The translations under genes were made by a program, and so were the position numbers. DNA of 64,000 nt from Rhodothermales bacterium (GTDB lineage: Bacteria > Bacteroidota > Rhodothermia > Rhodothermales > Bin80). How positions within the stretch are numbered: position 1 is the first letter of the stretch; every line of letters starts with the position of its first letter. Location of the stretch: the NCBI GenBank assembly GCA_958296045.1, contig CATQHT010000001.1, forward strand, positions 773,395 through 837,394, written 5' to 3'. Below, piece by piece: positions 16,816 through 61,079 of this stretch. Under the pieces are notes generated by a model. The model was not told where the DNA came from and made no database searches. It saw nothing but the letters and a program-made list of their open reading frames with translations.

Positions 16816-17469
16816 GCTCCCTTTCTTGAGCAGCGAAACGTGCAGGCCTGAGCCTCCAGGTTTTTCCAGCTCCTGTATGTTACGCCGCCCTGCGAAGGCG
16901 TTGACGTAGGCCTGGTGGTTCGGGATGAGCCGGTGGCAGACCTCCTTGTGTACCTGCTTCAGCATCGAAATGACTCGACCCCGTTCGTGTGGATCGCCAC
17001 GCCTTCGGGATACCGGGCGTATTCGGCCGCCGAGTGCGTCACCGTCTCGCGCTCTCGCCCGATGCCCTTGTAGGCTGGCGCTTCGTCGGTCTAGAGGAGA
17101 GTGCTGGGGTCGCATTTAGGTCCATAAAGCCCTGGAGTGTCACCCGGTCCTTGGCCTGGAGCACCGCGGGCTTCCCGGACCCCGGCCCACCTCTACCAGT
17201 TCGAGTTGCTCCAATTCGCCCGTTTACCGCCAACGTTGCACTCGTCCACCTCGACCAGCCCCTCGAAGCCGGTCCGCACCTCGTCGAATGCCTCCCGGAT
17301 CCGATGTAGCATGAACCAGGCGTACGGGTACGAGATATCGGTGCAGCTTGATCGCTCCGACTTCCTTGTGGCTGGTCCGTTCGAGGTAGATTGCCCAATC
17401 CCACATCTGAAAGGGACGCTTCGAGGCTTCCATGCTGGTCCCGGTCTTTCCGATGTGGATCTCAGTCAT
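16816..17469 (-). pseudogene. IS1595-family transposase, 5'-truncated, frameshifted and internally deleted (copy B)
   Basis: It has the same junction and N-terminal fragment as copy A ('MTEIHIGKTGTSMEASKRPFQMWDWAIYL') and the C-terminal 'SMLKQVHKEVCHRLIPNHQAYVNAFAGRRNIQ'. It lacks ~45 bp and ~190 bp that are present in copy A. Confidence 0.7.
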
Positions 17470-35120: not shown

Positions 35121-36689
35121 AGGCTGCAGAGTTGGGAATCTTGGAATATACTAACCACAGGTATAGCAGGTACAAGCTGCGCCTTTGTTCGCATCTCTCC
35201 AGGTACATCTGCCGAAGAGGCCGACAACAGGGTCGTCCTGCTGACTTGGCCTTCCTCGCCACTACAAGTCGGGTCGCGACAGCAACCTCTGATGCCCATC
35301 CCTCAGTGGAACAATCCTGTGGACTCAAGCCTGAAAGCTCCGCGTTTCCACTAATAATGGCTCACCCCCTGACCATCCGCAGATGTTCGCAGAAGGATCG
35401 CATGACATGGAGTAAGCTGGAGACTATGATTACATGGTGCTGGCCAGCGCTCATGATCAAACGCCCCTGGCCTGATCAACGATATGTCGCCACGCATGCC
35501 GTTGCGCCCCAAGGGAGGAGCCAGATGCGTTAACGCGCCTGTCTGGAGCTGTGCGGGGGGCCCGGGGAAACCCGGGTCCCTATCGCGAGGTCATCCGCTG
35601 AACCTTGCGATGAGCGCCACGGCAAATGTAACCTAGTGCGCAGACTTACGTATACTGGGTTGTTACCGGATCGGTCTTAACTCAACTCCGTGCTTATGTC
35701 AAGAGGGCAGCTGGAGCTAATTGCACGTACGCGGCACAACGACTTTTGGGGGGACGCGGCAGCGGACCATCATGATATAAAACCGATTTCTCGAATCTTA
35801 GAGGAGCGTAGCTTGATCCGCGATTCTGAACATGTTGGGGGTGTGCGCTGCATGGTGGGAGAGGTAGATGACGAGGTTCCTCCCGCAAGCGTGACAGTAT
35901 ATTTGGTCAGCGGATCCGCGGGCAGCGCAGAGGAGGTTCGTGAAGTACGCTTAGAAATGGAGGTAGTAGAATTCTTCCGATTATTCAAGCAGTTCGCAAT
36001 TGTACTGGAGCCATTTGCGGCGTAGCGCCAAGGGGCTTCCTGAGTGGGTACGGGTGTGATGCAAACTTAGCTGTCGCTGCTCTGCGCTGTTCGCCTGTGT
36101 TGGTGCAAGCCGTAGACGGAGTGTACGCGGCCTCTGACCCGCTCCCAGTGGTGGTCGGCGTTCTCAAAACATGAGGCGTGCTTATCGATCTCCTCGGGCA
36201 TGATGGCCAGCGCCTGAATCCGTTTCCGAAGTTTATCCAGCTCGTTCTGGGCATTCAATACGACCTGCCCGACCTGCCGTCCGTTGATGCCCTCGGGGGT
36301 GCCCAGCACGCCGCAACGCTTTTGTCCTAACGCGAGTGCTCATGTACGCCCGGTGGCGGCATTGCTGCATGCCACGTAATCTCTGTCGGCCGTCGCCCTC
36401 CGAAGTACTGCTTCCAGCTCAGAGGACCTGTGCTTGATCACGCCCCATACGCGAACTCAACACCATTAGCCTACGTTATCGCCTATACATACCTGCCCCC
36501 CAAGCGTTCCGCCATCTTGTGGTCCTGTCCCCAGTCCACCAAGCCAGTATAGCTTTGTGCGTGTCGCTATGCATGGTGGGTCCAGAGTTACGCTGCTCTT
36601 CGCGACTGCCAACAGGCCTTCCGTTCGCGTGATTTTACGTGTCTGTTACCATACCTAGTGACATGGATAGGTGGCTGCGTATTCCGCTT

Positions 36690-36779
36690 CAAATCGACCA
36701 GTGGTTCCACGGGAAATCGACCACCGATTCCACGGCAAATCGACCAGTGGCTCCACGGCAAATCGACCACCTGAGCTGG
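36690..36779. repeat. IS21 left-end subterminal direct repeats (3.9 x 23 nt, 'aaatcgaccaNNgNttccacgg')
   Basis: Read directly: 36690-36712, 36713-36735, 36736-36758, and a partial unit at 36759-36779. Confidence 0.85.
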
Positions 36780-36946
36780 CGCGCGCCGACCGGTGGCGGC
36801 GGGGTGTAGGAGGTCGGTTAACGGGCCTGCCAAATTGGCAGTCTGGCGGAGTTAGAAACGGGTTATTGTTGCCTGTCGCGGGTGATGGCGGCAGGGCAAG
36901 CGCAGGTGGTATCGTACCCTCTTTACTTACCAAAAGAGGGGTACTT

Positions 36947-38509
36947 ATGCCAAACAAGAGGGTTGTTATGCGTGTTTTGTGGGACGTTCTGCGGTTGTCT
37001 GCGGAGTCTGATTTGAGCGTACGTGGTATTGGTCGTGCGCTGGGAATATCGCACAGCACGGTACTTGGTTACTTGCGTCGTGCTAAGGCAGCGGGTGTGC
37101 ATTGGCCTTTGCCCGAGGGTATGCCGGAGGCCAAGTTGAAGGCATTGCTTTATGGTCCGCCGGAGGTTGCCAAGGAGACGCGTCCGTTGCCGGACTGGTC
37201 CGAGGTGGAGCGTAAGATGCAGGTCAAGGGGTTCACGCGGCGCCTGATGTGGGAGCGGTACAGGCGGGACCACAGCGATGGTTACGGCTACAGCAAGTTC
37301 TGCGCTCTTTACTCTGCCTGGAAGAAGGAATTTGGCCAGGTGACGGTTCCGATGGATCATCCTGCGGGTCATTCGGCCTTCGTGGACTATGCAGGCATGC
37401 GCCTGGAGGCGATAGACCAGCTTACGCGTAAGCGGCGTCGGGTGGAGACCTTTGTTGGTGTGCTGGGATTCTCCAATTATCTCTACGTTGAGGCGACGTG
37501 GACGCAGCGTCTTGGGGACTGGCTGGGCTCGCATCGTCGCATGTTCGAGTATTTCGGGGCGGTGCCTTCCTATGTGGTCTGTGACAATTTGAAGAGTGGC
37601 GTGCGCAAGGCCCACCGATACGATCCGGAGATCAATCCGTCGTATCAGGACCTTGCGATGCACTACAAGACCGTGGTTGTGCCTACGCGTCCCGGGAAGC
37701 CCAGGGACAAGGCCAAGGTCGAGCAAGCCGTGTTGCATGCAGAGAGGCGCATTCTGGCTCCGTTAAGCGATAAGCGTTTCATCGGTCTAGCGCATGTGAA
37801 CCGGCACATTCGTGTCCATCTGAAGGAGCTTAACGAGCGGCCTTTTCAGAAGCTGGAAGGCAGTCGTAAGAGCTGGTTTGACACGTGGGAGCGATCAGCG
37901 ATGAAGCCCTTGCCGGCGGAGCCGTACGAGCACGCGGAGTGGCGCAAAGCCAAGGTGCACAGAGATGCGCACATCGAGGTGCGCTGGCACCGTTATAGCG
38001 TTCCTTATCGATATGTAGGGCGTTCGGTACAGGTTCGCCTTACAGATACCACCCTGGAGGTATTTTTTGACGACAAACGGGTGGCGACGCACCCGCGTAG
38101 CCACCAGAAAGGGGTCACCACCAAGGATGAACACATGCCGGACTCCCAGCGCCAACTGAAGGATACGAGCCGCTTCGTAACCGAGGCAGAACGTATCGGG
38201 CCGGACACACACAAGGTCGTGCAGCAGATCATCGATGCTGAACGGCACCCGCTGATTCGTTACCGCACGCTCATGGGCCTGCTCCGCTTGGCTCGCATCT
38301 ACGGTAAGAGCCGCATGGAAAACGCGTGTACGCGGGCAATCGCTATCGGCACCCGCTCGTACAGGAGCATCGCGTCCATCCTGAAGAATGGACTCGACAA
38401 GCATCCGCTGGACTCGGTGTCTCCGCCTCCCATAGACCATGACAACATCCGGGGCCCAAGCTATTACGACACCAAATCGGATTCTCCTCACCAAACCTCG
38501 AAGGACTGA
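36947..38509 (+). CDS. istA: IS21-family transposase IstA
   Basis: The start is taken at 'MPNKRVVMRVLWDVLRLSAES.LSVRGIGRALGISHSTVLGYLRRA' (HTH). DDE core '..FVDYAG..', 'VVCDNLKSGV', 'PGKPRDKAKVEQAV'. The track ORF extends upstream into the IS end. Confidence 0.9.
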   Translation: MPNKRVVMRVLWDVLRLSAESDLSVRGIGRALGISHSTVLGYLRRAKAAGVHWPLPEGMPEAKLKALLYGPPEVAKETRPLPDWSEVERKMQVKGFTRRLMWERYRRDHSDGYGYSKFCALYSAWKKEFGQVTVPMDHPAGHSAFVDYAGMRLEAIDQLTRKRRRVETFVGVLGFSNYLYVEATWTQRLGDWLGSHRRMFEYFGAVPSYVVCDNLKSGVRKAHRYDPEINPSYQDLAMHYKTVVVPTRPGKPRDKAKVEQAVLHAERRILAPLSDKRFIGLAHVNRHIRVHLKELNERPFQKLEGSRKSWFDTWERSAMKPLPAEPYEHAEWRKAKVHRDAHIEVRWHRYSVPYRYVGRSVQVRLTDTTLEVFFDDKRVATHPRSHQKGVTTKDEHMPDSQRQLKDTSRFVTEAERIGPDTHKVVQQIIDAERHPLIRYRTLMGLLRLARIYGKSRMENACTRAIAIGTRSYRSIASILKNGLDKHPLDSVSPPPIDHDNIRGPSYYDTKSDSPHQTSKD

Positions 38510-39288
38510 TGCTCCTACACCCTACCCTTGACAAGCTCGAGCAGATGCGTCTGCATGGCATGGCGCGCGCGCTGCGTGATCAGCTTACCCAACCGGAAAT
38601 GGAACAGCTCCCGTTCATGGACCGCCTGGGCCTATTGGTTGACCACGAGGAGATCGTGCGATACAACAATCGCCTGCGGTCGCGCCTACGCCGCGCCCGG
38701 TTACGCCAGGAGGCCTCCATGGCCGATCTGGACTATCGTCGCGGTCGCAATCTGGATCGGCGCCTGATGGCCTCGCTTTCCACCTGCGACTGGGTGGGCA
38801 AACATCACAATGTGATCATTACCGGACCCACCGGTGTCGGCAAGAGCTTCGTGGCGTGCGCGCTGGCGCATAAAGCCTGCATAGAGGGGTTCACCGTACG
38901 CTACCACCGACTGCATCGTCTTCTGGAAGATCTGCAACTCGCGCACGGGGACGGACGCTTCCTGAAACTGCTGAAGCAGTTGACGCGCTTCCACCTACTG
39001 GTTCTCGATGACTGGGGGTTGTCACGAATCAGTGCGCTGCACCAGCGGGATCTGCTTGAGCTAATCGATGATCGGTATCAGAAGGGATCCATCGTCGTTA
39101 CCAGTCAGATGCCTGTGAGTGTGTGGCACGAAGGCATGGAAGACCCAACACTCGCTGATGCTATCCTGGATCGCCTCATTCACAATGCACACCACATCGC
39201 GCTGAAGGGAGAGTCCATGAGACAGCGTCTGCCACAATGGCAGAACCTTCCAGAGAAGACAAGCGTAACTGACGCCAGACAGCCGTGA
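38509..39288 (+). CDS. istB: IS21-family ATP-binding helper IstB
   Basis: 259 aa with Walker A 'ITGPTGVGKSF', Walker B 'LLVLDDWG', 'AILDRLIHNAHHIALKGESMR'. Confidence 0.9.
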   Translation: MLLHPTLDKLEQMRLHGMARALRDQLTQPEMEQLPFMDRLGLLVDHEEIVRYNNRLRSRLRRARLRQEASMADLDYRRGRNLDRRLMASLSTCDWVGKHHNVIITGPTGVGKSFVACALAHKACIEGFTVRYHRLHRLLEDLQLAHGDGRFLKLLKQLTRFHLLVLDDWGLSRISALHQRDLLELIDDRYQKGSIVVTSQMPVSVWHEGMEDPTLADAILDRLIHNAHHIALKGESMRQRLPQWQNLPEKTSVTDARQP

Positions 39289-51394: not shown

Positions 51395-53689
51395 CTATGG
51401 TGGCTGGCGCTCCACAAGGTCGTAAATCGCTCCGAGTTCTTCGTAGGCTATGGCGCGCATCTGCAGACTTGCGTACCCACGCCACATGATTTCGTGACCA
51501 GGCGGCGGGTCGTGCTTTCGGTTCATGTAGCCGCCCATCATCGCCATCAACAAAATTCCCGAGGTGAGGTCCTTGAGTTCGGGAAGGTCGTAATTGCGGG
51601 CATAGACCCGCAACATATACATCTCCGCGTCCGTGAAAATCACTTCCGCGTCCATGCTGGCAGTTACACGCCCCAACAGCGTCATGAGCATGAGCCGCCA
51701 GGACGTGACGATATACAGCGTTATTACCCGGTGCAGGTTCTCTGCCTGCTGCATGCGCAGCTTTTCGACGCGGCAACCCGTCTTGAGTACCCGAAAGGTG
51801 TCCTCCACGCGCCAGCGCAGGGTGTAGTATTCCAGTATCTGCTCTGCCTCTTGTAGTGAGGTAACCTCCACGGTGGTTAGCAGAAACCACTCAATCCGAT
51901 CTGCACCTTTGGGCGGTGCTATCTCACGAACGTGGACCGCGGAGACCTTCACGGGATCTTCGGCAAACCCGCCTGTTGCTGGCAACCTCACTTGGCGAAA
52001 ACGCACCTCCATGCGTGCATTACGCTTCGGACGGCCCTTGTGCGTGATCCGACCAGACTTCGCCCGAAGACTCAGACGCTCTACCAAGAGCTCCAGCACA
52101 CCGGCAGCAGGTCCACGGCGCATGGCTTTAAACAGGCGATCATGGTTCTTACCCAGATTCCGATCGTGTTTGGCCCGAATCAGCACATCGGTCCGCTTCA
52201 AAGTGCGCTGCGCCGCAAAGATCTCGAATGCATCCGCTTCCCGGTCCATCACGCTAAGCACGCGCGTCTTGCGCGGCAGCGTCTGTGCAGCCTCATCTAT
52301 GTCGCGAAGCCCATCAATCCATTGATGCGTTTTAGTTTGCCCTTCCTTTTTTCTGTACGAACACCGTAATACTCCCAAGGGCAATCCCTCGTCGTTCAAC
52401 GCCAGGGTCGCGTGCAGATGTACGCCGCGCGCCTGTGCCTTGGTCTGGTTGCTACCGATTACTTCCAATCCGTCGCACTGCGGACGTGTGCTGTAACTAA
52501 TGTCTGTACCATCCTGCACGAACAGCACCGTTTTCTGGGTGCGCATCCGCTCAATGGTCCGCTGCCGGTGCGGCGCCAGTATCTTCGCAGGTGTGATGCC
52601 GAACCTATCGGCCTTCTCGATGAATCGCCAATATCCCCTTACAGCAGCTAAGTCTCGGTTGGGAACCGTGGTTACGGGCTTTCCCATCGTTTTTGCTACT
52701 AGTGCCGCGCTCTTTACCAGACGGGCGGTGCGCCGAATATGGCCCAACGCTGCACCGCCGAATTCCTGTTCCGCACAAGAGTCGCTCGCCAGCCCAGCGC
52801 CCACCTCCAGCCGGGGTCGCAATTCCACATGCGGTACGCCCAGACGATCGCGCCACGCAGGATCCAGTTCATAGGCGAATACCTTCTTCCGTGAACGCTT
52901 TCCCACGCCGCTCGGTGCATGCCGACCGCGCCCCAGGGTGAGACCTAAGTATTGGAAGCCTGCTGCCTTGAAACACGTACCCTCGTAACGTGGACACACG
53001 AAGGTCTCTACCACGTAAGGTACATACTTATACCGGGCCATGAAGTCGGAGGACAATCGCCGAAACACGCGACCCAGCACGAAGCTCGCCAGATTCTTGC
53101 ACCGAACACTTGGACGAATCAGAAAACGACTCAGGTTCACTACGCGCTTAAGATGGCCGCTGCGCTGCTCATGACTCCAGGCCATCCACCGGTCCCGCGC
53201 CTTGAGATAAAGCGCAGCGGCAGAGAATCCGACCGCCCCCAGATAACCGTGGGCGCTCTTAATTAGGTAGCGCATTTGTGCTCCCGCAAAGGTGGTCACC
53301 CCCCGGGGATGCTCTTCGTCCATGAGCGTATTCCAGATGGCGCGATCTTGTGCGCTGTCTACTCGGACGATCTCGAAATCCTCGATCTCGCGCACATCAG
53401 CCGGAACGTCCACCGCCTCTGGTACCGGTTTACCCAATAGCCGTGGCTTGGCGATTCGAAGCTTCACCTGTGGAGGGGGTAAAGCAATCTGCTCTTCAGA
53501 ATGCAGCACCCTAAGGGCCTTCATGCAGCCCGCCAGCCGCTTCTCGCCACGTGCATCGACCAAGCGGAATTGATCGCACACCATACCCGCGAGCGCACGC
53601 CGACTCTTGTCACGATGCGCCGCTACCGTAGCTGACACCTCCAGCACGGCACTGCGAAGCGTTTCCAAGATCCCGAGTGGCCCCTGCAT
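51395..53689 (-). CDS. DUF4338 (DruA-like) domain fused to Tn5/IS50-like IS4-family DDE transposase
   Basis: The N-terminal ~330 aa carry 'GAQMRYLIKS..GYLGAVGFSAAALYLKARDRWMAWSHEQR..LKRVVNLSRFLIRPSVRCKNLASFVLGRV..ETFV.PRYEGTCFKAAGFQYLGLTLGRGR'. Next comes the Tn5 N-terminal DNA-binding region 'LGHIRRTARLVK', then DDE 'VLFVQDGTDISY', 'LSVMDREADAFE' and 'YYTLRWRVEDTFRVLK' (Y-2-R-3-E-6-K). The start is taken at 'MQGPLGILETL'. The track ORF runs to 53809. Confidence 0.85.
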   Translation of the reverse strand: MQGPLGILETLRSAVLEVSATVAAHRDKSRRALAGMVCDQFRLVDARGEKRLAGCMKALRVLHSEEQIALPPPQVKLRIAKPRLLGKPVPEAVDVPADVREIEDFEIVRVDSAQDRAIWNTLMDEEHPRGVTTFAGAQMRYLIKSAHGYLGAVGFSAAALYLKARDRWMAWSHEQRSGHLKRVVNLSRFLIRPSVRCKNLASFVLGRVFRRLSSDFMARYKYVPYVVETFVCPRYEGTCFKAAGFQYLGLTLGRGRHAPSGVGKRSRKKVFAYELDPAWRDRLGVPHVELRPRLEVGAGLASDSCAEQEFGGAALGHIRRTARLVKSAALVAKTMGKPVTTVPNRDLAAVRGYWRFIEKADRFGITPAKILAPHRQRTIERMRTQKTVLFVQDGTDISYSTRPQCDGLEVIGSNQTKAQARGVHLHATLALNDEGLPLGVLRCSYRKKEGQTKTHQWIDGLRDIDEAAQTLPRKTRVLSVMDREADAFEIFAAQRTLKRTDVLIRAKHDRNLGKNHDRLFKAMRRGPAAGVLELLVERLSLRAKSGRITHKGRPKRNARMEVRFRQVRLPATGGFAEDPVKVSAVHVREIAPPKGADRIEWFLLTTVEVTSLQEAEQILEYYTLRWRVEDTFRVLKTGCRVEKLRMQQAENLHRVITLYIVTSWRLMLMTLLGRVTASMDAEVIFTDAEMYMLRVYARNYDLPELKDLTSGILLMAMMGGYMNRKHDPPPGHEIMWRGYASLQMRAIAYEELGAIYDLVERQPP

Positions 53690-54139
53690 GCCCGTAAGGT
53701 AACGGACACAAACGTGGTTGTCAAGTCGACCATTAGCCCAAGGGGCAGACCTAGGATCCGCCCTTACGTACGCGGGCATACCTGCGTGACTACGCCGCAT
53801 ACATGCCAAAAACGCACGTCAACCCCAGTCCGCATGGCCGCTCGATCATTGACCAGGTGCGCCCTCAATAGAAGATCACCCGCACCCGCAACCAGATTCC
53901 CGAAGAACATCGGCGAATAGCGATACCTGTCAGAGCTAAGAGTCATGGCTGCTCTGCTGAGTTGAGTATTCCTCAACCTGCCCGAAGCCGAGGTTACCGC
54001 ATAGCCATAGAGGACCGCACCCAAACATAAGCAGGGCAAATCTCCCGGCTTAAATGCCCTTTGCGAGACAATTACGTTGGTCCGCTGCCAGAGTCAAGTA
54101 GCAACGGCACCGCCGAAGCAAACACCGAGAAGCACGGCA

Positions 54140-54357
54140 AGCAGATGAAGCCTGATCCCGTACACGCGCCGCTCATGCATGTGCGCAGATTCAGGGAGAA
54201 TGTGCTCAAGGTAGGGGGACGCCTGACCAGACATGCACGGCAGCTGCACTTCTATCTCGCCGAGTCCGCAAAGAAGCTGTGGGAGACCTTCTGGGAAAAC
54301 ACATGGAAGCTGCGCTGGCAGACCCTGTGCTGGCCGAGTCTGCCTAAACGGTGCTAA
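54140..54357 (+). pseudogene. C-terminal remnant of a DDE transposase (IS1380-like tail)
   Basis: 'RRFRENVLKVGGRLTRHARQLHFYLAESAKKLWETFWEN' resembles the IS1380-type C-terminus '..lR..ll.vagrlvrhaRr..l.l..'. No catalytic core lies upstream. Confidence 0.4.
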
Positions 54358-54728
54358 GAGGCCACCGACCGGCTTCCTGACCACGTTAACGCACCTCCCC
54401 AAGGGCGACCAACAAGAGCCCAGCGCCAAGCTACGCCCGCGCGACATTAATTCGCCCCGCTGAGCGGCAAACAGACACCCTGAGCGCGCCGCAAACCCGC
54501 AAAATCGCTCTCTCGCTCCACGACTAGGTCCCATCAACGGGTCATACCCCTGCCTCCAAGGCATTTCCCCTCAACGGCCGCCCACGAATTCCAAGTAGTG
54601 AATAGGGTGGGTTTATTCATTGAAATGGACCGTATAGGCCCCCTCTTAGTTGAAAAGTGACGCACTCAGCGTTACATGCATTGTAACAAAGTATCCATGC
54701 AATACTTTGCTGCTGTTTTATGCAAATT

Positions 54729-55031
54729 TCAGACGTGAATTATGCGGCTTGAATCTGGCACTAGGCGGTCCAGCAGGTTGCGGATCTGCCCGTCAGAGGG
54801 AATGCCTTGCATGCCAAACAGCGTCTGGCAGTTGGAACGGCCCTAGTCGTCCTGCATCCTCCGCTGAAAAGCAGGAAAGGAGGGCGATGGCAGAAAGAAG
54901 CAGGCACATGCGCTCAACACGGCATCGGCCAGCGTGTAGCGCAGATTGGGTCCCTGGCGGTTATCCTCAAATGCACCGGCGGCCGATCGGATGCGTCTCA
55001 GCACATCGCGCAGCAGCTTGCTTGGTGTCAT
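54729..55031 (-). pseudogene. N-terminal remnant of a DDE transposase with in-frame TAG (family uncertain)
   Basis: '..NLRYTLADAVLSACACFFLPSPSFPAFQRRMQDD*GRSNCQTLFGMQGIPSDGQIRNLLDRL' matches the conserved N-terminus of a transposase family ('kY.L.D...sa...F..q.pSfL.fQr......n...lFg....PSd.qIR..LD'). It is truncated after ~100 codons. Confidence 0.4.
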
Positions 55032-55313
55032 GGGTGTACCTCAGAGTGAAAGACAAAAGCACGCTATAGCAGGGCATCGCTGGACCGGTATTGCCAGTCC
55101 ATACACCCATCATACACAAATCGTCTGCTGAACAGGCATTCCCGTAAACCCTACATGCATCCACATTTAGAATCGCTGTGGGCTCCCGGGTCGACTTGCC
55201 CTTTTCACCCTAGTGTCCTTACCTTTGGTGCGCAAACTGGAGTACTGCGTTATGGTAAGCTCTAAAGCAATGCTATATCCGACCCAGGGCGCAGCCCGGC
55301 GTCTGGAAAATTC

Positions 55314-55326
55314 GGGGGGGGGGGGG
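55314..55326 (+). repeat. G13 homopolymer tract 69 nt upstream of the giant LRR gene start
   Basis: Counted directly, and consistent with the track ORF 55213..55422 reading '..ENSGGGGYS..'. Confidence 0.95.
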
Positions 55327-55394
55327 TATTCCTCACGATCCTTTCTGCGCTGCTTCGCGGAGCCCTGCCCAGACGCGCTGGCTGCTCGCTGCGC

Positions 55395-58300
55395 GTGGGT
55401 ATGGCAGCGATTGCCTGTCTAACGGCGGCGCACGTTGGTACGGCACAGGACATCGAAACCGTTATATTCCCAGTCCTGAGGGCCCTCTACAACGCAACTG
55501 ACGGCGACAACTGGACGAATACCACGGATAACAACCGACCGTGGGATGTGACCAGCGTACCGACTGCAGCAGAGTTGGAGAATTGGCATGGGATTGCTTA
55601 CATCTTTGGCGAACTCGTTGGCGTGGCTCTTGAAAACAACGGGCTTTCTGGTACGATCCCGGTTGAATTGGGCAACCCGGGACTGACATCATTAGTGACA
55701 TTGGGCCTAGCCGAAAACTCTCTCACTGGTACGGTCCCGGGCGAGTTGGGCGAATTGTCGGCCCTAATAGCGTTAGACATTCAATACAATAGGCTTACGG
55801 GGGTATTGCCCTTCGAGCTGACCAATCTGACCAGCCTCCAAGGCTTCTGGTTTAATGATAACGATGGTCTTTGTGCGCCCGTCGACGATGACTTTCAGGA
55901 TTGGCTTGATCCGTTTGCAGTCCCCGTACCCCCCGGTCCCAATTGTACTGCGCCTGTGTTACCAGAAATCGAAGATAAGAAGTATACAGAAGGTGTATTG
56001 GTTCCAGGGGACATGCTTCCGGCTGCGATGGGCGGTATTCCGCCATACGGTGAATATAGTCTCTCGCCGGATCCGCCTTCGGGCCTGGAGTTTAATCGCG
56101 ACACGCGTGTCATAAGCGGCACGCCATTGGAGGTTTTTCCTCGGGCGCCGTTCACGTATACAGTTACGGATGGGGCAATGGGGACCGCGTCACAGACATT
56201 CACCATCGAGGTTGTTACGGCGGCGTTGTTTTTAGAGGACGTGCCAGAGCAGGTGTATTCCTTCGGGCAAGAGGTCTCCTTCTTCCTTCCTGAGGCACGC
56301 GGCGGCGTTCCGCCGCACCGCTACGCGCTGACGCCGGATCCGCCGGAGGGACTGGTGTTTGACGAGAACACGCGTGAGCTCAGTGGTACGCCGACCGAAG
56401 TCGTTGCGCGACAGGAGTACACGTACACGGTAACAGATGCAGCGCAGGTGACCGTACCGGTAGAGTTTGGCATCGAGGTGACGTTGGCTTGGGCGGAGGT
56501 GCCAGATCGGACCTATACCTTTGAAGTGCCTATCGTGCCCTTGGAGCTTCCCGAGCCTCTTGGCGGCACGGCTCCTTACGAGTATACCGTTTCTCCAGTG
56601 CTGCCGCCGGGTTTGGCGTTTGATGAACAAGTAGGGTCACTCACGGGCACGCCATCGGTGGGTGTGCCTCGAACGAAGTACACCTGGGGGGCGAGGGACG
56701 CTGCCGGATTCGTGGTGGCGCGGTCCTCGTTTATGGAGGTGCGGTTGGCGTTATTCGCGATCCAGGATTATTCGTTTCCGTTAGGAGTGGAGATCGTTCC
56801 GCTGGTGTTCCCTTCTGCGCAGGGTGGCACCGGTGTGGTCGAGTACACGCTGACGCCGGCGCTTCCTGAGGGTTTGGACTTTGATGAGTTTGCGCGCGTG
56901 CTCTTCGGCACGCCGACCGAAGCTATGGGAGAGACCGAGTACACGTACCGGGCCGAGGATGCGGAGGGCGCTTTTGGTGAGCAGACCTTTTCTATGGAGG
57001 TGCTATCACTGGTTTTACCTATCGTTGCGGACACGGTCTTTGTGGTGGGCGAGGCGGTCGACTGGGTGTTGCCCGAGGCTGTGGTCGGTACGCCTCCCTT
57101 AGTCTATTCGTTGGATGGGGCGCTTCCAGAGGGGTTGACGTTTGTTCCTGGAATGCGCACGCTCCATGGCATGCCGACGGCGGTGGCAGACGCGCAGGAC
57201 TATGTGTATGAGGTTGAGGACGGGGAGGGTTTGACGGCGCAGGCGCCCTTCACCATAGCGGTGGTGCCGGCGGAGCTGCGGCTGCCTCTGGTAGCGGCGC
57301 AGCACTATGTGGCAGAGAGGGAGATGTCCCGGGTGCTGCCGGAGGCTACGGGCGGTACGCCTCCCTTAGTCTATACGTTGGATGGGGTGCTTCCTGAGGG
57401 GCTGGCATTTGATTCTGGTACGCGCACGCTCAGTGGTACGCCGACGTTGGCGGTGCCACGCGCGGAGTATCGGTACGGGGTGGAGGATGCCGAAGGCGAT
57501 ACGACATCGCAGGCGTTCGTTATGGAGATCCATGGCGCGTTCACCTTGCCGTCTGTGCCTGACCAGGACTTTACGGTAGGGGAGGACCGCTCGGTGGAGT
57601 TGCCGTTGGCGTCGGGCGGCTTGGGTTCGCCCACGTATATGCTGACGCCGGCGTTGCCGTCGGGGCTCACCTTTGATGCGTCCTCGCGTGTGCTGAGCGG
57701 CACGCCGACCGCCGTCGCGGCTCCTATGACGTACACGTATGCGGCGACGGATACGACCGGCACCCCTGTCGAGCGGGAGTTTATGCTGGCGGTCTACGAT
57801 GTGCTGACGTTGCCCGAGGTAGCGGATCAGCGTTATGTGTACGGGGAGCAGATTTCGTTGGCTTTGCCACCGGCCGTGGGAGGTAACCCGGGGTACACGT
57901 ATAGCTTAATGCCGGATCCGCCGGAGGGACTGGTGTTTGATTCCACGGCCACGGCGCGCGTGCTGAGCGGCACGCCTACCCAGGCCACCGCGCCTGAGGA
58001 GTACACGTACATGGCGACGGATGCGAACGGTGCGACGGCGTCGGGCACCTTCTATATTGAGGTGGCCTTAGCGTTGGCATCCATTGATGATCAGAAGTAT
58101 CGGGTGGGAGAGGCTGCGAGCGTGGTGCTTCCCGCAGCGCTGGGTGGCGCGGATCCGATGTATATGCTGACGCCGGCGTTGCCGTCGGGGCTGACCTTTG
58201 ATGCGGCCACGCGTACGTTGGGTGGCACGCCTATGGAAGCCACCGCGCCTGTGGAGTACGCGTACGTGGCGACGGATGCGGCCGGTCTGGCGGCTTCGGA

Positions 58301-61079
58301 CACGTTCCTTATCGAGGTCGCGTTGGCGTTGGCCTCGGTGGAGGATCAGGCGTATGAGGTCGACGTCTTAGTGCCAGACGTGATGCTTCCCGCAGCGCGG
58401 GGTGGCACGGATCCGTACACGTACGTGCTGACGCCCTCGCTGCCTTTGGGGCTCACGTTTGATGCGTCTATACGTGTGCTGGGTGGCACGCCGACCGTAG
58501 CCACCGCGCCTGTGGAGTACACGTACCTGGCGACGGATGCGGCCGGTCTGGTGGCTTCGGACACGTTCCTTATCACGGTGCGGCTGGCGTTGGCTTCCAT
58601 TGCGGATCAGGCGTATGCGGTGGGAGAGGATACGAGCCTGGTGCTTCCTGCAGCGCGTGGTGGCACGGATCCGTACAGGTATGCGTTGACCCCGGATCTG
58701 CCTGTGGGCCTGGCGTTTGACCGTACCACGCGTGTGCTCAGCGGCACGCCTACCGAGGCTACGGCGCCTGTGGAGTACAGGTACGCGGCGACGGATGCGG
58801 CCGGCTTGGCGGCTTCGGACACGTTCCTTATCGAGGTGTATGTGGCGCTGATGCTGCCGGGGGTGGAGGATCAGGTGTTCGGGGTAGGCCAGCAGGTCAC
58901 TTGGGTGTTACCTGCGGCCGCGGGGGGTGAGCATCCCCACGCGTATCGGCTGGATCCGGCTCCCCCGGTCGGGCTGGCCTTTGAGGCATCTACGCGCACG
59001 TTGAGCGGGGTGCCGACGGCGGCGGTGGCTGCCACCGGCTATACGTATACGGTAGAGGACGCCAGCGGGCGGCAGGCTTCCCAACCGTTTAGCATAGAGG
59101 TGTTGGGCTCGCTCCTGTTGCCTGCGGTGCCGGATACGGTCTTTACGGTGGACGAAGATATCGTGCCGTGGATGCTTCCCCCAGCTACCGGTGGCAGGAG
59201 TCCGTACGAGTATGTGTTGCATCCCGACCCGCCTGCGGGGTTGGTGTATGACGAGGCGTCGCGCACCCTCAGCGGCCGCCCCTTGACGATACTGTTGCCA
59301 CAGCCTTACACGTATACGGTGACGGATGCGTTGGGCATGGAGACCGCGCGGACGTTTGATATCACGGTGGGGGCGCCGGCTGCTTTGCTTACCGACCGTG
59401 CGGCGCTGATCGCGTTGCATGAGGACGCCGGTGGCGAGCGCTGGACGGACCGCAGCGGCTGGCTGGATCCGCCTGCCGACGTGGTAGCGTTCACCGCGGA
59501 GGCGCTGGAGGCATGGTTTGGGGTTTCGGTGGACTCCGGCCGCGTGGTGGCGTTAACGCTGCCGCACAACAATGTGGAAGGCACGTTGCCAGAGGCGTTG
59601 GGGGATCTGACGGCGCTGGAGCAGCTGCACCTCTACGGCAATAGGTTGCAGGGCCGCATCCCTGCGGCGCTGGGGCGGCTGGACAGCCTGCGCGGGCTGC
59701 TCCTGCACGACAACGAGCTGACGGGCTCTATCCCAGACTCTTTGGGTCGGCTGGTCCATCTGCGGGAGCTGTGGCTGTATGGCAATGCGCTGGGGGGTTC
59801 GCTGCCCACCACGTTGGGGCAGCTGGACAGCTTGCGCGGGCTGCTGCTGCATGGCAACGCGCTGGTGGGCACGATCCCGCCTGCGCTGGGGGCTCTGGTG
59901 CGGCTGGAGGATCTGTGGTTACAGGACAACCGTCTGGAGGGCTCGATACCGCCCACGTTGGGGCAGCTGGACCGTCTGCGTACGTTGCTCTTGCATGGCA
60001 ACGCGCTCACGGGTACGATACCGCCTACGTTGGGAGATCTCACGCGGCTGGAGGATCTGTGGTTACAGCACAACGGTCTGGAGGGCTCGATCCCGAGCGC
60101 GTTGGGGCAGCTGGACCGCTTGCGTGGGTTGCTGCTGCATGGCAACGCGCTGGTGGGCACGATACCGCCGGTGTTGGGGGATCTGTCCGCGCTGCGTTGG
60201 CTGCAGTTGCAGCATAACGCGCTAGAGGGAGGGGTACCGTCCGCGCTGGGGCAGCTGGCACATCTGGAGCGGTTGCAGCTCGAGGGCAACAGGCTGACGG
60301 GCGCGTTGCCCGACTCTTTGGGTGAGCTGGCGGCGCTGACGCATCTGTATGTGCACGACAACATGTTGACAGGCATGTTGCCGCAGGCTTTGCGGCAGCT
60401 TACCGCATTGCAGGAGTTGTTCTTTGGTGGTGCGGACCAGGCGCTCTGTGCGCCGGTGGATGCGCCCTATCGGGCGTGGTTGGCGTCTTTGGAGGCGGTG
60501 CGGGGCCCGCACTGCGGGGAGCACGGGCTGGTGTTTGCGGCCTCGGTGCCGGATCTCCAGTTCACCGCGGATCAGCGCGTAGCGGATGTGGCGTTGCCGC
60601 CTGCCGAGGGGGGCACCGCGCCTTATCGCTACGTGCTGGATCCGGCGTTGCCCACCGGGCTGGCGTATGAGGCTGACGCACGCGTGCTGCGCGGGGTGCC
60701 GGTGGCATCCACAGCGCCGGTGACCTATACGTATACGGCGATGGATGCGACAGGGCGTACCGGGCAGCTGTCGTTCACGCTGGCGGTAGCGCCACCGATG
60801 GCCGACGGGCTATTGCTCCATGGCAACTATCCCAACCCGTTTAGGGACTACACGCATGTGGAGATCAGCCTGGCGCACGATGCCGACGTGCGCCTAGCGG
60901 TCTTTGACCTTTTGGGTCGCCGCGTGGTGGATCAGGCGCTGGGGCGCCTGCCAGCGGGCGCGCATCGGCGTCTGGCGATACAGGTGCATAGCGTGCCAGG
61001 CATCTACCTGTACCGCGTCGTGGCCACGATGCCAGACGAGACGATCGTGCGCACAGGCCATTTGACCGTGGTACGCTAA
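55395..61079 (+). CDS. Giant surface protein: plant-type LRR block / 13 Ig-like (He_PIG/'putative Ig') repeats / second LRR block / 1 Ig-like repeat / T9SS C-terminal sorting domain
   Basis: 1894 aa. The LRR cap is 'LRALYNATDGDNWTN' and the LRRs follow 'L..L..L.L..N.L.G.IP..LG'. The Ig-like repeats are ~87-95 aa with consensus 'Y.L.P.LP.GL.FD...R.LSGTPT.....EYTY.ATDA.G..AS..F.IEV'. CTD 'GNYPNPFRDYTHVEISL..VRLAVFDLLGRRV..GIYLYRVVA'. The GTG start gives a weak signal peptide (see findings). Confidence 0.85.
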   Translation: MGMAAIACLTAAHVGTAQDIETVIFPVLRALYNATDGDNWTNTTDNNRPWDVTSVPTAAELENWHGIAYIFGELVGVALENNGLSGTIPVELGNPGLTSLVTLGLAENSLTGTVPGELGELSALIALDIQYNRLTGVLPFELTNLTSLQGFWFNDNDGLCAPVDDDFQDWLDPFAVPVPPGPNCTAPVLPEIEDKKYTEGVLVPGDMLPAAMGGIPPYGEYSLSPDPPSGLEFNRDTRVISGTPLEVFPRAPFTYTVTDGAMGTASQTFTIEVVTAALFLEDVPEQVYSFGQEVSFFLPEARGGVPPHRYALTPDPPEGLVFDENTRELSGTPTEVVARQEYTYTVTDAAQVTVPVEFGIEVTLAWAEVPDRTYTFEVPIVPLELPEPLGGTAPYEYTVSPVLPPGLAFDEQVGSLTGTPSVGVPRTKYTWGARDAAGFVVARSSFMEVRLALFAIQDYSFPLGVEIVPLVFPSAQGGTGVVEYTLTPALPEGLDFDEFARVLFGTPTEAMGETEYTYRAEDAEGAFGEQTFSMEVLSLVLPIVADTVFVVGEAVDWVLPEAVVGTPPLVYSLDGALPEGLTFVPGMRTLHGMPTAVADAQDYVYEVEDGEGLTAQAPFTIAVVPAELRLPLVAAQHYVAEREMSRVLPEATGGTPPLVYTLDGVLPEGLAFDSGTRTLSGTPTLAVPRAEYRYGVEDAEGDTTSQAFVMEIHGAFTLPSVPDQDFTVGEDRSVELPLASGGLGSPTYMLTPALPSGLTFDASSRVLSGTPTAVAAPMTYTYAATDTTGTPVEREFMLAVYDVLTLPEVADQRYVYGEQISLALPPAVGGNPGYTYSLMPDPPEGLVFDSTATARVLSGTPTQATAPEEYTYMATDANGATASGTFYIEVALALASIDDQKYRVGEAASVVLPAALGGADPMYMLTPALPSGLTFDAATRTLGGTPMEATAPVEYAYVATDAAGLAASDTFLIEVALALASVEDQAYEVDVLVPDVMLPAARGGTDPYTYVLTPSLPLGLTFDASIRVLGGTPTVATAPVEYTYLATDAAGLVASDTFLITVRLALASIADQAYAVGEDTSLVLPAARGGTDPYRYALTPDLPVGLAFDRTTRVLSGTPTEATAPVEYRYAATDAAGLAASDTFLIEVYVALMLPGVEDQVFGVGQQVTWVLPAAAGGEHPHAYRLDPAPPVGLAFEASTRTLSGVPTAAVAATGYTYTVEDASGRQASQPFSIEVLGSLLLPAVPDTVFTVDEDIVPWMLPPATGGRSPYEYVLHPDPPAGLVYDEASRTLSGRPLTILLPQPYTYTVTDALGMETARTFDITVGAPAALLTDRAALIALHEDAGGERWTDRSGWLDPPADVVAFTAEALEAWFGVSVDSGRVVALTLPHNNVEGTLPEALGDLTALEQLHLYGNRLQGRIPAALGRLDSLRGLLLHDNELTGSIPDSLGRLVHLRELWLYGNALGGSLPTTLGQLDSLRGLLLHGNALVGTIPPALGALVRLEDLWLQDNRLEGSIPPTLGQLDRLRTLLLHGNALTGTIPPTLGDLTRLEDLWLQHNGLEGSIPSALGQLDRLRGLLLHGNALVGTIPPVLGDLSALRWLQLQHNALEGGVPSALGQLAHLERLQLEGNRLTGALPDSLGELAALTHLYVHDNMLTGMLPQALRQLTALQELFFGGADQALCAPVDAPYRAWLASLEAVRGPHCGEHGLVFAASVPDLQFTADQRVADVALPPAEGGTAPYRYVLDPALPTGLAYEADARVLRGVPVASTAPVTYTYTAMDATGRTGQLSFTLAVAPPMADGLLLHGNYPNPFRDYTHVEISLAHDADVRLAVFDLLGRRVVDQALGRLPAGAHRRLAIQVHSVPGIYLYRVVATMPDETIVRTGHLTVVR
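55977..59370 (+). repeat. Array of 13 tandem Ig-like domain repeats (~258-285 nt period), central units near-identical over 30-45 nt stretches
   Basis: The motif '..SGTPT..' recurs 13 times. 'gcgacggatgcggccggtctgg.ggcttcggacacgttccttatc' recurs at ~58269, ~58527 and ~58788. Confidence 0.8.
59555..60430 (+). repeat. Array of ~12 tandem 24-aa (72-nt) leucine-rich repeats with 48/96-aa super-periodicity
   Basis: 'LGQLDSLRGLLLHGNALVGTIPPALG' and 'LGQLDRLRGLLLHGNALVGTIPPVLG' are encoded by ~90% identical 75-nt stretches 288 nt apart. Confidence 0.85.

What the first reader, a model, noticed from the sequence alone, without database searches (positions are those of the whole stretch)
55213..55401. 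G13 homopolymer immediately upstream of the giant LRR/Ig surface-protein gene: candidate phase-variation switch acting on the signal peptide
A run of 13 G (55314-55326) sits 69 nt before the GTG assigned as the start (55395). In the gene's frame there is no ATG, GTG or TTG between the upstream stop (55263) and 55395. The resulting N-terminus (MGMAAIACLTAAHVGTAQ) lacks the positively charged n-region of a signal peptide. A different frame opens upstream (GTG 55213, ATG 55252) and reads through the tract ('..RRLENSGGGG'). With G14 or G11 this upstream ORF would join the giant gene in frame, adding '..VFLTILSALLRGALPRRAGCSLR' ahead of the hydrophobic core. That gives a much better export signal. 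Slipped-strand changes in the tract could thus switch production or export of a 1894-aa T9SS cargo ON and OFF. This contingency-locus logic is well known in pathogens, but I am not aware of it having been described for this lineage.
Basis: partly seen in the sequence, partly recalled or inferred. Interest (0 to 1): 0.62.

Follow-up and report, generated by a model that had tools for sequence, protein, structure and literature searches.

The report
Variable poly-G switch before surface-protein gene
A run of 13 G's at the start of a giant surface-protein gene of an uncultured sponge-associated bacterium has a different length (9, 10, 11 or 13 G) in different natural populations, and only some lengths join the gene to its likely true start, so it is probably a slippage-driven ON/OFF switch of a kind well known in pathogens but, in my literature searches, not found reported for sponge symbionts.

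Summary
G13 lies at 55314-55326, where about 0.003 such runs are expected by chance. The giant ORF has no in-frame start before GTG 55395, and an upstream ORF (ATG 55252) would join it at G14, G11 or G8.

The host is a sponge-associated Rhodothermales. The gene encodes LRR and 14 He_PIG stretches plus a borderline T9SS sorting domain.

Assembled contigs of public runs show the same tract, uninterrupted, as G13, G9, G10 and G11. The G11 allele is the predicted ON form. All indels and repeat-number variants seen inside the gene body keep the frame.

ATG 55252 looks like a real start. A Bacteroidota-type -7 box (TACCTTTG) lies 25 nt upstream, and the initiation region is unstructured like other starts in this window. 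GTG 55395 sits in unusually strong structure.

My best reading (confidence about 0.5) is translational phase variation through a poly-G tract in the leader coding region. This would be a new member of a known kind.

Not shown: length heterogeneity within one population (no raw reads were available), the real start codon, and any phenotype. Four of five haplotypes are OFF. A non-coding 5'-UTR tract remains the main rival.

The parts
55196..55198 (+). TTG, candidate -33 element of a Bacteroidota-type promoter
   Evidence: It lies 21 nt upstream of the -7 box. The otherwise unalignable upstream sequence of the X10 haplotype also has a TTG, 20 nt upstream. This is an inference; the transcription start has not been mapped.
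55220..55227 (+). TACCTTTG, a match to the Bacteroidota -7 promoter consensus TAnnTTTG
   Evidence: The motif is enriched in the window's intergenic DNA: 9 observed against 2.7 expected from shuffles, P about 0.0025 (matches listed). Homology between the window and the divergent X10 contig begins at 55218, just before this box.
55252..55313 (+). Leader ORF upstream of the tract (MVSSKAMLYPTQGAARRLENS), with ATG at 55252 and a second in-frame ATG at 55270; proposed true start of the gene
   Evidence: The initiation region (-25..+25) folds at -8.8 kcal/mol, against -7.4 +/- 3.8 for 17 other starts in the window. This frame has the best codon-usage score of the three: +3.7 against -8.0 and -2.9, shuffle P = 0.065. 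Both ATGs appear unchanged in the G9 and G11 haplotypes; for G11 this is inferred from the absence of listed differences.
55314..55326 (+). G13 homopolymer, the hypermutable tract
   Evidence: Alleles in public runs are G13 (X1), G9 (X1, X2, X3, X4, X9), G10 (X5) and G11 (X10). None is interrupted.
55326..55394 (+). Extension of the giant ORF's frame that has no start codon (VFLTILSALLRGALPRRAGCSLR): a hydrophobic segment followed by a basic stretch just before the signal-peptide core
   Evidence: Between haplotypes there are 3 synonymous and 4 mostly conservative non-synonymous changes in this frame, which does not decide the question. The codon-usage score is the best of the three frames but weak: +0.5, P = 0.22.
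55395..55448 (+). GTG 55395 (first canonical start of the ORF as assembled) and the signal-peptide core VGMAAIACLTAAHVGTAQ, with predicted cleavage before D at 55449
   Evidence: The initiation region folds at -19.7 kcal/mol with 68% GC, more structured than all 17 other starts. ATG 55401 is CTG in every other haplotype. The AQ|D-then-LxALYNAT layout matches the homologues P0004 and P0073. Contig depth here is 4-10 times that of the flanks, so more genomes or gene copies share this segment than share the tract.
55420..55422 (+). TGA that ends the leader ORF in the G13 and G10 (OFF) alleles
55395..61079 (+). Giant surface-protein ORF (1894 aa): N-terminal LRR block, 14 He_PIG Ig-like stretches, a second LRR block, C-terminal T9SS sorting domain
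   Evidence: Pfam He_PIG 4.4e-118 (14 stretches), LRR_8, LRR_4 and LRR_14. NCBIfam TIGR04183 at 23.1 bits against a cut-off of 23, at residues 1812-1876. Every indel or repeat-number variant seen in other haplotypes keeps the frame.
60828..61022 (+). T9SS type A C-terminal sorting domain (residues 1812-1876)
   Evidence: the match passes only marginally.
55000..55178 (.). Context: end of a multi-copy element that abuts the gene's promoter region
   Evidence: Contig depth is 100-470 here against 8-25 downstream. Many contigs diverge at 55178, 55179 or 55183.

Best explanation
The tract is a slipped-strand 'contingency' switch inside the 5' coding region of the giant LRR/He_PIG surface-protein gene. 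Inferred chain of events: transcription starts a few bases after the -7 box TACCTTTG (55220-55227). Ribosomes begin at the first AUG (55252, or 55270 in the same frame), translate about 20 codons and then read the poly-G as a glycine run. When the tract has 3n+2 G's (G8, G11, G14), they continue into VFLTILSALLRGALPRRAGCSLR and the signal-peptide core, and make the full-length exported T9SS cargo. With G13 or G10 they stop at TGA 55420. With G12 or G9 they stop about 81 codons in. Those alleles are OFF, or at most leaky through weak initiation at GTG 55395 or polymerase slippage. Replication slippage changes the tract length from time to time, so a symbiont population carries cells with and without this host-facing protein. 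Shown here: the tract, its frame logic, its length polymorphism between natural populations including one ON allele, and frame conservation in the rest of the gene. Inferred: the promoter, the start codon, reversibility and rate of switching, and any selective benefit.
For: (1) The tract is far longer than chance allows and is unique in the window. (2) Four lengths (G13, G9, G10, G11) occur at the same site in contigs from runs of at least four differently labelled samples dated 2018-2025. G9 was reproduced in five runs of two samples. The tract stays uninterrupted although the flanks differ by about 3-8%. (3) The G11 allele (X10) gives one continuous ORF from ATG 55252 through the signal peptide into the LRR cap. 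(4) The gene body tolerates only frame-preserving length changes: two compensated +1/-1 pairs, +3, -1851, -2097 and +72 nt, all with net change a multiple of three. The first 834 nt of a G9 haplotype carry 36 substitutions but no stop or indel. The gene is therefore kept translatable, in contrast with the non-triplet changes at the tract. (5) ATG 55252 has the features of a start in this genome: a -7 box 25 nt upstream, the motif enriched in intergenic DNA (P about 0.0025), and an unstructured AT-richer initiation region (-8.8 kcal/mol). GTG 55395 is the most structured of 18 starts compared (-19.7 kcal/mol, z about -3.2). (6) From GTG the signal peptide has no basic n-region, unlike other exported proteins here. 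The in-frame codons without a start just upstream supply RR..R and a strong hydrophobic segment. (7) The design is classical for surface proteins: a repeat in the leader or signal-sequence coding region. One reported case is an LRR protein, L. monocytogenes inlA, with a 5' poly(A) tract (PMC2831843).
Against: Four of five haplotypes (G13, G10 and two diverged G9 haplotypes) are OFF under this model. Only the most divergent copy (X10) is ON, and 1 in 3 ON is what a non-coding tract would give. Two G9 haplotypes that differ by 5-6 SNPs share the same length, so switching may not be very fast. In X1 the two lengths are linked to different SNPs, which is strain difference rather than demonstrated within-clone variation. 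Changes in the leader ORF between haplotypes are mostly non-synonymous (T>I/V, Q>R, G>D; one synonymous). Codon-usage support is weak (P = 0.065 and 0.22). The ON leader of about 65 aa with two hydrophobic segments is atypical for a Sec signal. No other gene with a poly-G at a matching distance upstream of the LRR-cap motif was found in 185,579 species genomes, and no orthologue was found for comparison. The exact length in the window could be off by one if the assembly is long-read based.
Confidence: 0.5

Rival explanations
1. The tract is not translated. The gene starts at GTG 55395 (or at a rare start such as CTG 55365), and the poly-G lies in a roughly 160-nt 5' untranslated leader. Its length drifts freely because no reading frame constrains it. 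Either it has no effect, or it tunes expression gradually through RNA structure or short upstream ORFs, rather than switching ON and OFF.
For: All three frames occur among five haplotypes, and most are 'OFF' although the 5.7-kb ORF is kept intact in populations where only G9 was assembled. Substitutions in the leader ORF are mostly non-synonymous, and codon statistics are not significant. A CTG start at 55365 would give a textbook MPRRAGCSLRVG... signal peptide. Repeats in intergenic or 5'-UTR positions that affect expression are known (PMC12721329).
Against: GTG 55395 sits in the most structured, GC-rich initiation region of 18 compared, and from it the signal peptide lacks a basic n-region. 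The frame upstream of GTG stays open through the tract and encodes signal-peptide-like sequence. A -7 box followed 25 nt later by an AUG in a typical initiation context would then be coincidence. There is no Rfam family and no unusual fold in the leader.
Confidence: 0.25
2. The gene's 5' end is decaying. A frameshift at a mutation-prone homopolymer, possibly after the neighbouring multi-copy element rearranged the upstream region, has silenced the gene in most lineages. The length differences are one-way damage rather than a reversible switch.
For: Most alleles are out of frame. The promoter region abuts the end of a repeated element at 55178, next to a Tn5-like transposase. The N-terminal 278 codons show 23 non-synonymous against 4 synonymous codon changes between two haplotypes, which could reflect relaxed constraint.
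Against: There are no stops or frameshifts in 5.7 kb. All six length variants seen in other haplotypes have a net change that is a multiple of three, which is not expected for a dead gene. The tract remains a pure G run of 9-13 in every haplotype instead of decaying. Fragments 90-99.5% identical to the gene body occur in metatranscriptome contigs, which is weak evidence because DNA carry-over is possible.
Confidence: 0.12
3. The window's G13 is a homopolymer miscall for G14 (or G11). In this strain the gene is simply intact from ATG 55252, and there is nothing special about its state.
For: Related chromosome-level Rhodothermales MAGs come from long-read projects. Long homopolymers are the main residual error of such reads (my own knowledge). 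A G9 tract also splits a gene into two frames in another long-read-style metagenome contig, L066.
Against: A Logan contig of run X1 independently shows exactly G13 at depth 5.4. G9 was reproduced identically in five runs. Even if this one length were wrong by one, the differences among G9, G10, G11 and G13 across runs would remain, and with them the tract's variability.
Confidence: 0.08
4. Expression does not depend on DNA length alone. RNA polymerase slips on the long G run and produces a mixture of transcript lengths, so that 'OFF' DNA alleles still yield some in-frame mRNA.
For: The tract is long enough for slippage in principle, and the ORF is maintained in populations that carry OFF lengths. 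That polymerase slippage can rescue frameshifted homopolymer genes in endosymbionts is my own knowledge.
Against: There are no RNA reads across the tract apart from one low-depth contig of an uncertain library type, which shows a single length, G10. As far as I know, slippage is best documented for A/T runs, not G runs.
Confidence: 0.05

Closest known systems
Poly-G/C contingency genes of Campylobacter jejuni and Neisseria meningitidis (for example hmbR/hpuA, nalP, mspA)
   Same: A G/C homopolymer of about 8-13 lies inside the 5' part of a surface or secreted-protein ORF. Slippage by a non-multiple of three switches translation ON or OFF, and tract lengths differ between isolates (PMC8355987, PMC3025981, PMC3786947, PMC3723659, PMC5084427).
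   Different: Here the host is an uncultured, non-pathogenic sponge-associated Rhodothermales. Switching within a clone has not been observed. The start codon is inferred, not mapped. Only this one tract is known, whereas those pathogens carry dozens.
Repeats in the signal-sequence coding region of outer-membrane protein genes (Neisseria opa CTCTT repeats; Helicobacter pylori hop/bab/sab CT repeats)
   Same: The repeat lies between the start codon and the hydrophobic core or cleavage site, so that the frame of the mature adhesin depends on repeat number (my own knowledge).
   Different: Here the repeat is a mononucleotide rather than a penta- or dinucleotide. The leader is much longer (about 65 aa). 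No multigene family has been demonstrated here.
Listeria monocytogenes inlA 5' poly(A) tract
   Same: A 5' homopolymer reversibly truncates an LRR-containing surface protein that mediates interaction with host cells. The frameshift alleles have several independent origins (PMC2831843).
   Different: That tract is A7-type, in a Gram-positive pathogen, with the switching frequency measured experimentally. Here the tract is G9-13 and nothing has been measured.
Homopolymers outside the ORF that modulate transcription or mRNA fate (Bordetella fim poly-C promoters; Treponema pallidum tpr poly-G; Haemophilus 5'-UTR repeats)
   Same: This would be the matching class if the non-coding rival is correct: a poly-G/C upstream of a surface-protein gene whose length tunes expression (PMC1891110, PMC12721329; the T. 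pallidum case is from my own knowledge).
   Different: No sigma-70-type promoter spans the tract. The only promoter-like element found lies upstream of it, so changes in promoter spacing are unlikely to be the mechanism.
Eukaryotic-like (LRR, ankyrin) proteins of sponge symbionts
   Same: It is an LRR-rich, exported protein in a sponge-associated bacterium. This class is thought to mediate recognition by, or evasion of, host cells (PMC8546597, PMC5845141, PMC6306507).
   Different: Two literature searches brought up no paper on repeat-mediated phase variation in sponge symbionts or in Bacteroidota; a further search combining Rhodothermales, sponge, LRR and T9SS found no paper at all. The He_PIG/T9SS architecture and the poly-G leader are specific to this gene.

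Membership tests
Simple-sequence-repeat contingency (phase-variable) locus | An uninterrupted repeat long enough to be hypermutable (G/C of about 8 or more) | tested here: met
   G13 in the window and G9-G11 elsewhere, never interrupted. About 0.003 such runs are expected by chance.
Simple-sequence-repeat contingency (phase-variable) locus | The repeat is placed so that length changes alter expression (inside the ORF, or within promoter or leader) | tested here: inconclusive
   The frame logic holds if translation starts at ATG 55252 or 55270. Promoter-motif and initiation-region evidence favours that start. Coding tests on the flanks are not significant, and the start has not been mapped.
Simple-sequence-repeat contingency (phase-variable) locus | Repeat length polymorphic among strains or populations, with both ON and OFF alleles | tested here: met
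   G13, G10 and G9 are OFF and G11 is ON, across runs X1-X5, X9 and X10.
Simple-sequence-repeat contingency (phase-variable) locus | High-frequency, reversible length change within a clonal lineage | not testable with these tools
   Only assembled Logan contigs were available. Contigs drop minor variants, and the co-occurring G13 and G9 in X1 lie on different SNP haplotypes.
Simple-sequence-repeat contingency (phase-variable) locus | Switch in protein production or phenotype | not testable with these tools
   The organism is uncultured. Metatranscriptome contigs give only sparse, low-depth matches to the gene body.
T9SS type A cargo protein | C-terminal sorting domain (TIGR04183 / PF18962) | tested here: met
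   TIGR04183 scores 23.1 bits against a cut-off of 23 at residues 1812-1876, which is marginal. There is also a C-terminal match to NF052323. Pfam PF18962 was not reported at E <= 0.01.
T9SS type A cargo protein | N-terminal Sec signal peptide | tested here: inconclusive
   A hydrophobic core and a TAQ|D site are present. A basic n-region exists only if translation starts upstream of GTG 55395. No signal-peptide predictor was available.
T9SS type A cargo protein | T9SS machinery encoded in the same genome | not tested
   Only a 64-kb window is available. The lineage (Rhodothermales) is one in which T9SS is common (my own knowledge).
Bacteroidota-type sigma-A promoter | -7 element TAnnTTTG, with a -33 TTTG about 19-21 nt upstream | tested here: met
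   TACCTTTG lies at 55220-55227. cTTG lies 21 nt upstream, matching 3 of the 4 bases of the -33 element. The motif is enriched in intergenic DNA. Function and transcription start are not mapped.

The most novel reading that the evidence does not exclude
The promoter, AUG leader, poly-G and signal-peptide segment may be a shared 5' cassette placed in front of several different LRR/Ig surface-protein bodies in sponge-associated Rhodothermales. That would make a multigene, independently switchable repertoire of host-facing 'eukaryotic-like' proteins, comparable to opa or vlp families, which lets an extracellular animal symbiont vary its surface within the host. Three observations point this way. 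The X10 contig shares the cassette and then diverges right after the LRR cap. The X6 contig is identical up to the fourth G and then continues into unrelated sequence. The signal-peptide core has 4-10 times the depth of either flank.
Probability: 0.15. Interest if true: 0.75.

Novelty: new member of a known kind. Interest (0 to 1): 0.5.

Why it matters
Sponge symbionts carry many exported 'eukaryotic-like' repeat proteins that are thought to govern recognition and phagocytosis by the host. How their expression is controlled in these uncultured bacteria is not known. A slippage switch on one of the largest of them would mean that stochastic surface variation, so far regarded mainly as a pathogen strategy, also operates in ancient mutualistic or commensal animal-microbe associations, and in the Rhodothermales/Bacteroidota lineage, where (to my knowledge) the phase variation described so far works mostly through invertible DNA. 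It also gives a cheap read-out that can be tested in metagenomes: tract length per haplotype, compared across hosts, tissues and life stages. On the practical side, gene callers will truncate or mis-start such genes, so symbiont 'secretomes' may be systematically under-called at homopolymers.

Tried and rejected
1. Orthologue comparison failed. There was no exact-flank match in GTDB species genomes or JGI metagenomes, and no close relative of the first 502 aa in either collection. The protein is not on record in the assembly index. A protein search returned only LRR proteins with at most 56% identity over part of the query and none of the leader.

2. I searched 185,579 genomes for the same architecture elsewhere, a G run of 9 or more placed 140-170 nt before a YNATDG-coding motif. 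There were no hits.

3. Raw-read length heterogeneity could not be examined. All runs that hold the locus are kept only as contigs.

4. Codon-usage log-likelihood on the two flanks puts the right frames on top but is not significant.

5. Synonymous/non-synonymous counts in the 23 codons between the tract and GTG gave 3 synonymous and 4 non-synonymous changes across the haplotypes. For the five differences between the window and one G9 haplotype, the gene frame and one alternative frame tie at 3 synonymous to 2 non-synonymous, so the test is uninformative.

6. A sigma-70 promoter with the tract as spacer was rejected. TGGAAA-N17-TATTCC is a poor match, and the scan found none.

7. A riboswitch or structured leader was rejected. 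There is no Rfam hit, and the fold z-score is -0.96.

8. The similarity of the leader's 'RRLE' to the n-region of P0073 is not significant.

9. The X6 continuation sequence is not elsewhere in the window.

10. The repeated element at 55000-55178 has no second copy in the window, and its ORFs match no Pfam family.
Full report
**Observation.**
- A run of 13 G occupies 55314-55326.
- It is the only homopolymer longer than 8 in the 64-kb window. A first-order Markov model expects about 0.003 G or C runs of this length.
- The 1894-aa ORF 55395-61079 has GTG 55395 as its first ATG/GTG/TTG. Its frame is nevertheless open back to the TAA at 55263, and the 43 in-frame codons in between contain no canonical start.
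- A second ORF (GTG 55213; ATG 55252 and 55270) runs through the tract in another frame and stops at TGA 55420-55422.
- Rebuilding the region with other tract lengths shows that G14, G11 or G8 fuse this upstream ORF to the giant ORF. G13 and G10 stop after 55-56 codons, and G12 and G9 after 81-82 codons.

**What the gene and organism are.**
- Pfam finds 14 He_PIG Ig-like stretches (E = 4e-118) and two blocks of leucine-rich repeats.
- NCBIfam finds a T9SS type A sorting domain at the C-terminus, only just above its cut-off: 23.1 bits against 23.
- A conserved neighbouring gene places the window in Rhodothermales. The nearest genomes are metagenome-assembled genomes, several from sponges and corals, at about 60% protein identity.
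- The public runs that hold this locus are sponge-derived samples.
- Genes in the window show no Shine-Dalgarno motifs, as is usual in the Bacteroidota-like lineages.

**The tract in other populations.** No orthologue could be retrieved from GTDB species genomes, JGI metagenomes or the protein collection. Logan contigs of public runs do cover the site.

| Run(s) | Tract length | Notes |
|---|---|---|
| X1 | G13 | depth 5.4; the contig differs from the window at three nearby bases |
| X1, X2, X3, X4, X9 | G9 | two samples, two SNP haplotypes |
| X5 | G10 | library type uncertain, possibly RNA |
| X10 | G11 | a 2018 sponge metagenome |

- In one search the flanking 'TATTCCTCACG' follows directly after 9, 10 or 11 G.
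- The flanks TCTGGAAAATTC and TATTCCTCACG are conserved, and no allele has an interrupted tract, although the surrounding sequence differs by about 3-8%.
- The tract is therefore real, evolutionarily persistent and variable in length, and all three reading frames occur.
Its reconstructed sequence reads MVSSKAMLYPVRDAARRLENSGGGVFLTILSALLRGALPRRVGCSLRVGLAAIACLSAAHVGTAQD... without a stop.
- Where G13 and G9 co-occur (X1) they sit on different SNP haplotypes. This is strain-level difference, not demonstrated within-clone switching.
- No raw reads were available, so the key test of heterogeneity within a population could not be run.

**Is the gene kept functional?** In the variant haplotypes, every length change inside the 5.7-kb body preserves the frame:
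- two compensated +1/-1 pairs;
- a +3 insertion;
- repeat-number changes whose net sizes are 1851 nt and 2097 nt lost and 72 nt gained, all multiples of three.

An 834-nt stretch of a G9 haplotype has 36 substitutions, no stop and no indel. Of the changed codons, 23 are non-synonymous and 4 synonymous, clustered in patches. This points to diversifying selection on a host-facing surface or to relaxed constraint. The contrast matters: only triplet changes in the body, non-triplet changes at the tract. It means the tract is either outside the translated region or is a tolerated switch.

**Where does translation start?** Four lines favour ATG 55252.
1. TACCTTTG at 55220-55227 matches the Bacteroidota -7 promoter consensus TAnnTTTG. 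In this window the motif is enriched in intergenic DNA: 9 observed against 2.7 expected, P about 0.0025. A TTG lies 21 nt upstream. The otherwise unalignable upstream sequence of X10 also has a TTG, 20 nt upstream. ATG 55252 would then be the first AUG, about 15-20 nt into the transcript.
2. Initiation regions of 17 other genes here are unstructured (-7.4 +/- 3.8 kcal/mol for -25..+25), against -12.3 +/- 4.4 for random 50-mers. ATG 55252 scores -8.8, whereas GTG 55395 scores -19.7, the most structured of all.
3. From GTG the signal peptide has no basic residue ahead of its core, unlike the other exported proteins in the window. The in-frame codons without a start just upstream encode RR..R and a strongly hydrophobic VFLTILSALL.
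4. Codon usage ranks the ATG frame first upstream of the tract and the gene frame first downstream of it. That is the expected pattern for a frameshift at the tract, but significance is weak: P = 0.065 and 0.22.

Several points count against this start.
- The leader ORF's substitutions are mostly non-synonymous.
- The ON leader, at about 65 aa with two hydrophobic segments, is unusually long.
- ATG 55401 is not conserved, but GTG 55395 is.
- Four of five haplotypes are OFF.

**Mechanism and rivals.** I consider translational phase variation by slipped-strand mispairing in the leader coding region the best explanation (confidence about 0.5). The rivals are:
- a non-coding tract in a long 5' UTR, with the start at GTG 55395 or a rare start codon, either neutral or acting as an expression rheostat (0.25);
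- one-way decay of the 5' end next to a mobile-element boundary (0.12), which the frame-preserving variation in the body argues against;
- an off-by-one homopolymer call in this assembly (0.08), which would change this strain's state but not the variability;
- transcriptional slippage that makes OFF alleles leaky (0.05).

No Rfam family and no unusual RNA fold were found in the leader. No sigma-70 promoter spans the tract.

**Comparison with known systems.** The design is the classical contingency-locus design: a homopolymer in the 5' or leader part of a surface-protein gene.
- It is known from Campylobacter and Neisseria poly-G genes (PMC8355987, PMC3786947, PMC3723659, PMC5084427).
- It is known from signal-sequence repeats of opa and Helicobacter outer-membrane protein genes (my own knowledge).
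- It is known for an LRR protein, the 5' poly(A) tract of Listeria inlA (PMC2831843).
- Against the defining features: tract length, polymorphism between populations, and the presence of both ON and OFF alleles are met. Placement within the translated region is inconclusive. Reversible high-frequency switching and phenotype are not testable here.
- Two literature searches brought up no paper reporting such switching in sponge symbionts or in Bacteroidota, and a third, on Rhodothermales, sponge, LRR and T9SS together, found no paper at all. LRR 'eukaryotic-like proteins' are an established theme in sponge symbiosis.
- I therefore rate this a new member of a known kind, of moderate interest (0.5).

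**Most novel reading that remains open.** The cassette of promoter, leader, poly-G and signal peptide may front several different LRR/Ig genes.
- X10 shares it and then diverges right after the LRR cap.
- X6 is identical up to the fourth G and then continues into unrelated sequence.
- The signal-peptide core has 4-10 times the depth of its flanks.

A switchable multigene surface repertoire in an animal symbiont would be more interesting, but I give it only about 0.15.

Noticed in passing
window 55000-55183: Contig depth is 100-470x here against 8-25x for the gene's leader. Many contigs in every run diverge at 55178, 55179 or 55183. This looks like the end of a multi-copy (mobile?) element that abuts the promoter region of the giant gene. 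It has no second copy in the window, and the small ORFs inside it (54843-55031 minus strand, 54094-54564 minus strand) match no Pfam family.
   Followed up: partly
window 51395-53809 (-): An 804-aa ORF combines an N-terminal DruA (Druantia) domain with a DDE_Tnp_1 transposase domain and a Tn5 dimerisation domain. IS21-type (36671-39288) and IS110-type (22691-23854) transposases are also present. The region is rich in mobile elements.
   Followed up: no
window 13199-16606 (-) and 17466-20843 (-): Two tandem genes, 98% identical, encode an enzyme of about 1130 aa that resembles a Type ISP / Type IIG restriction-modification enzyme (N6_Mtase, Eco57I and Type_ISP_C domains). Nearly all differences lie in the C-terminal half, which contains the specificity domain. 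This suggests a recent duplication with diverging target recognition.
   Followed up: partly
window 55395-61079: Other haplotypes of the giant gene carry in-frame repeat-number variants (net -1851, -2097, +72 and +3 nt). Amino-acid divergence in the N-terminal LRR block is strikingly high: 23 non-synonymous against 4 synonymous codon changes in 278 codons, clustered at 55587-55634 and 56127-56173. This points to diversifying selection or mosaic recombination.
   Followed up: partly
window 55226-55317 (run X6): A 151-nt contig from a third host label is 100% identical up to the fourth G of the tract. It then continues as CCCCGGGCCGCGTGGGTGTGTTGAAGACGC, which is not found in the window. No X6 contig matches the gene downstream. 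This is either a different junction at the tract or an assembly artefact.
   Followed up: partly
window 55360-55455: Contig depth rises stepwise to 4-10 times that of both flanks across the signal-peptide core (...RVG[M/L]AAIACLTAAHVGTAQD). More genomes or gene copies share this segment than share the poly-G leader.
   Followed up: partly
L066 4146-4154: In an unrelated long-read-style metagenome contig, a G9 run separates two frames of what looks like one gene (ORFs 3772-5073 and 4103-5065). It lies immediately downstream of an LRR protein gene (P0073). This is either another homopolymer frameshift of the same kind or a sequencing error.
   Followed up: partly
window 55239-55247: Five linked substitutions within 9 nt (CTGGAGTACTG to CTAGGGTGCAA) lie between the -7 box and ATG 55252. 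They distinguish the G9 haplotypes from the window, while the otherwise more divergent G11 haplotype (X10) appears to carry the window's version; that is inferred from the absence of listed differences. This suggests mosaic recombination in the leader.
   Followed up: no
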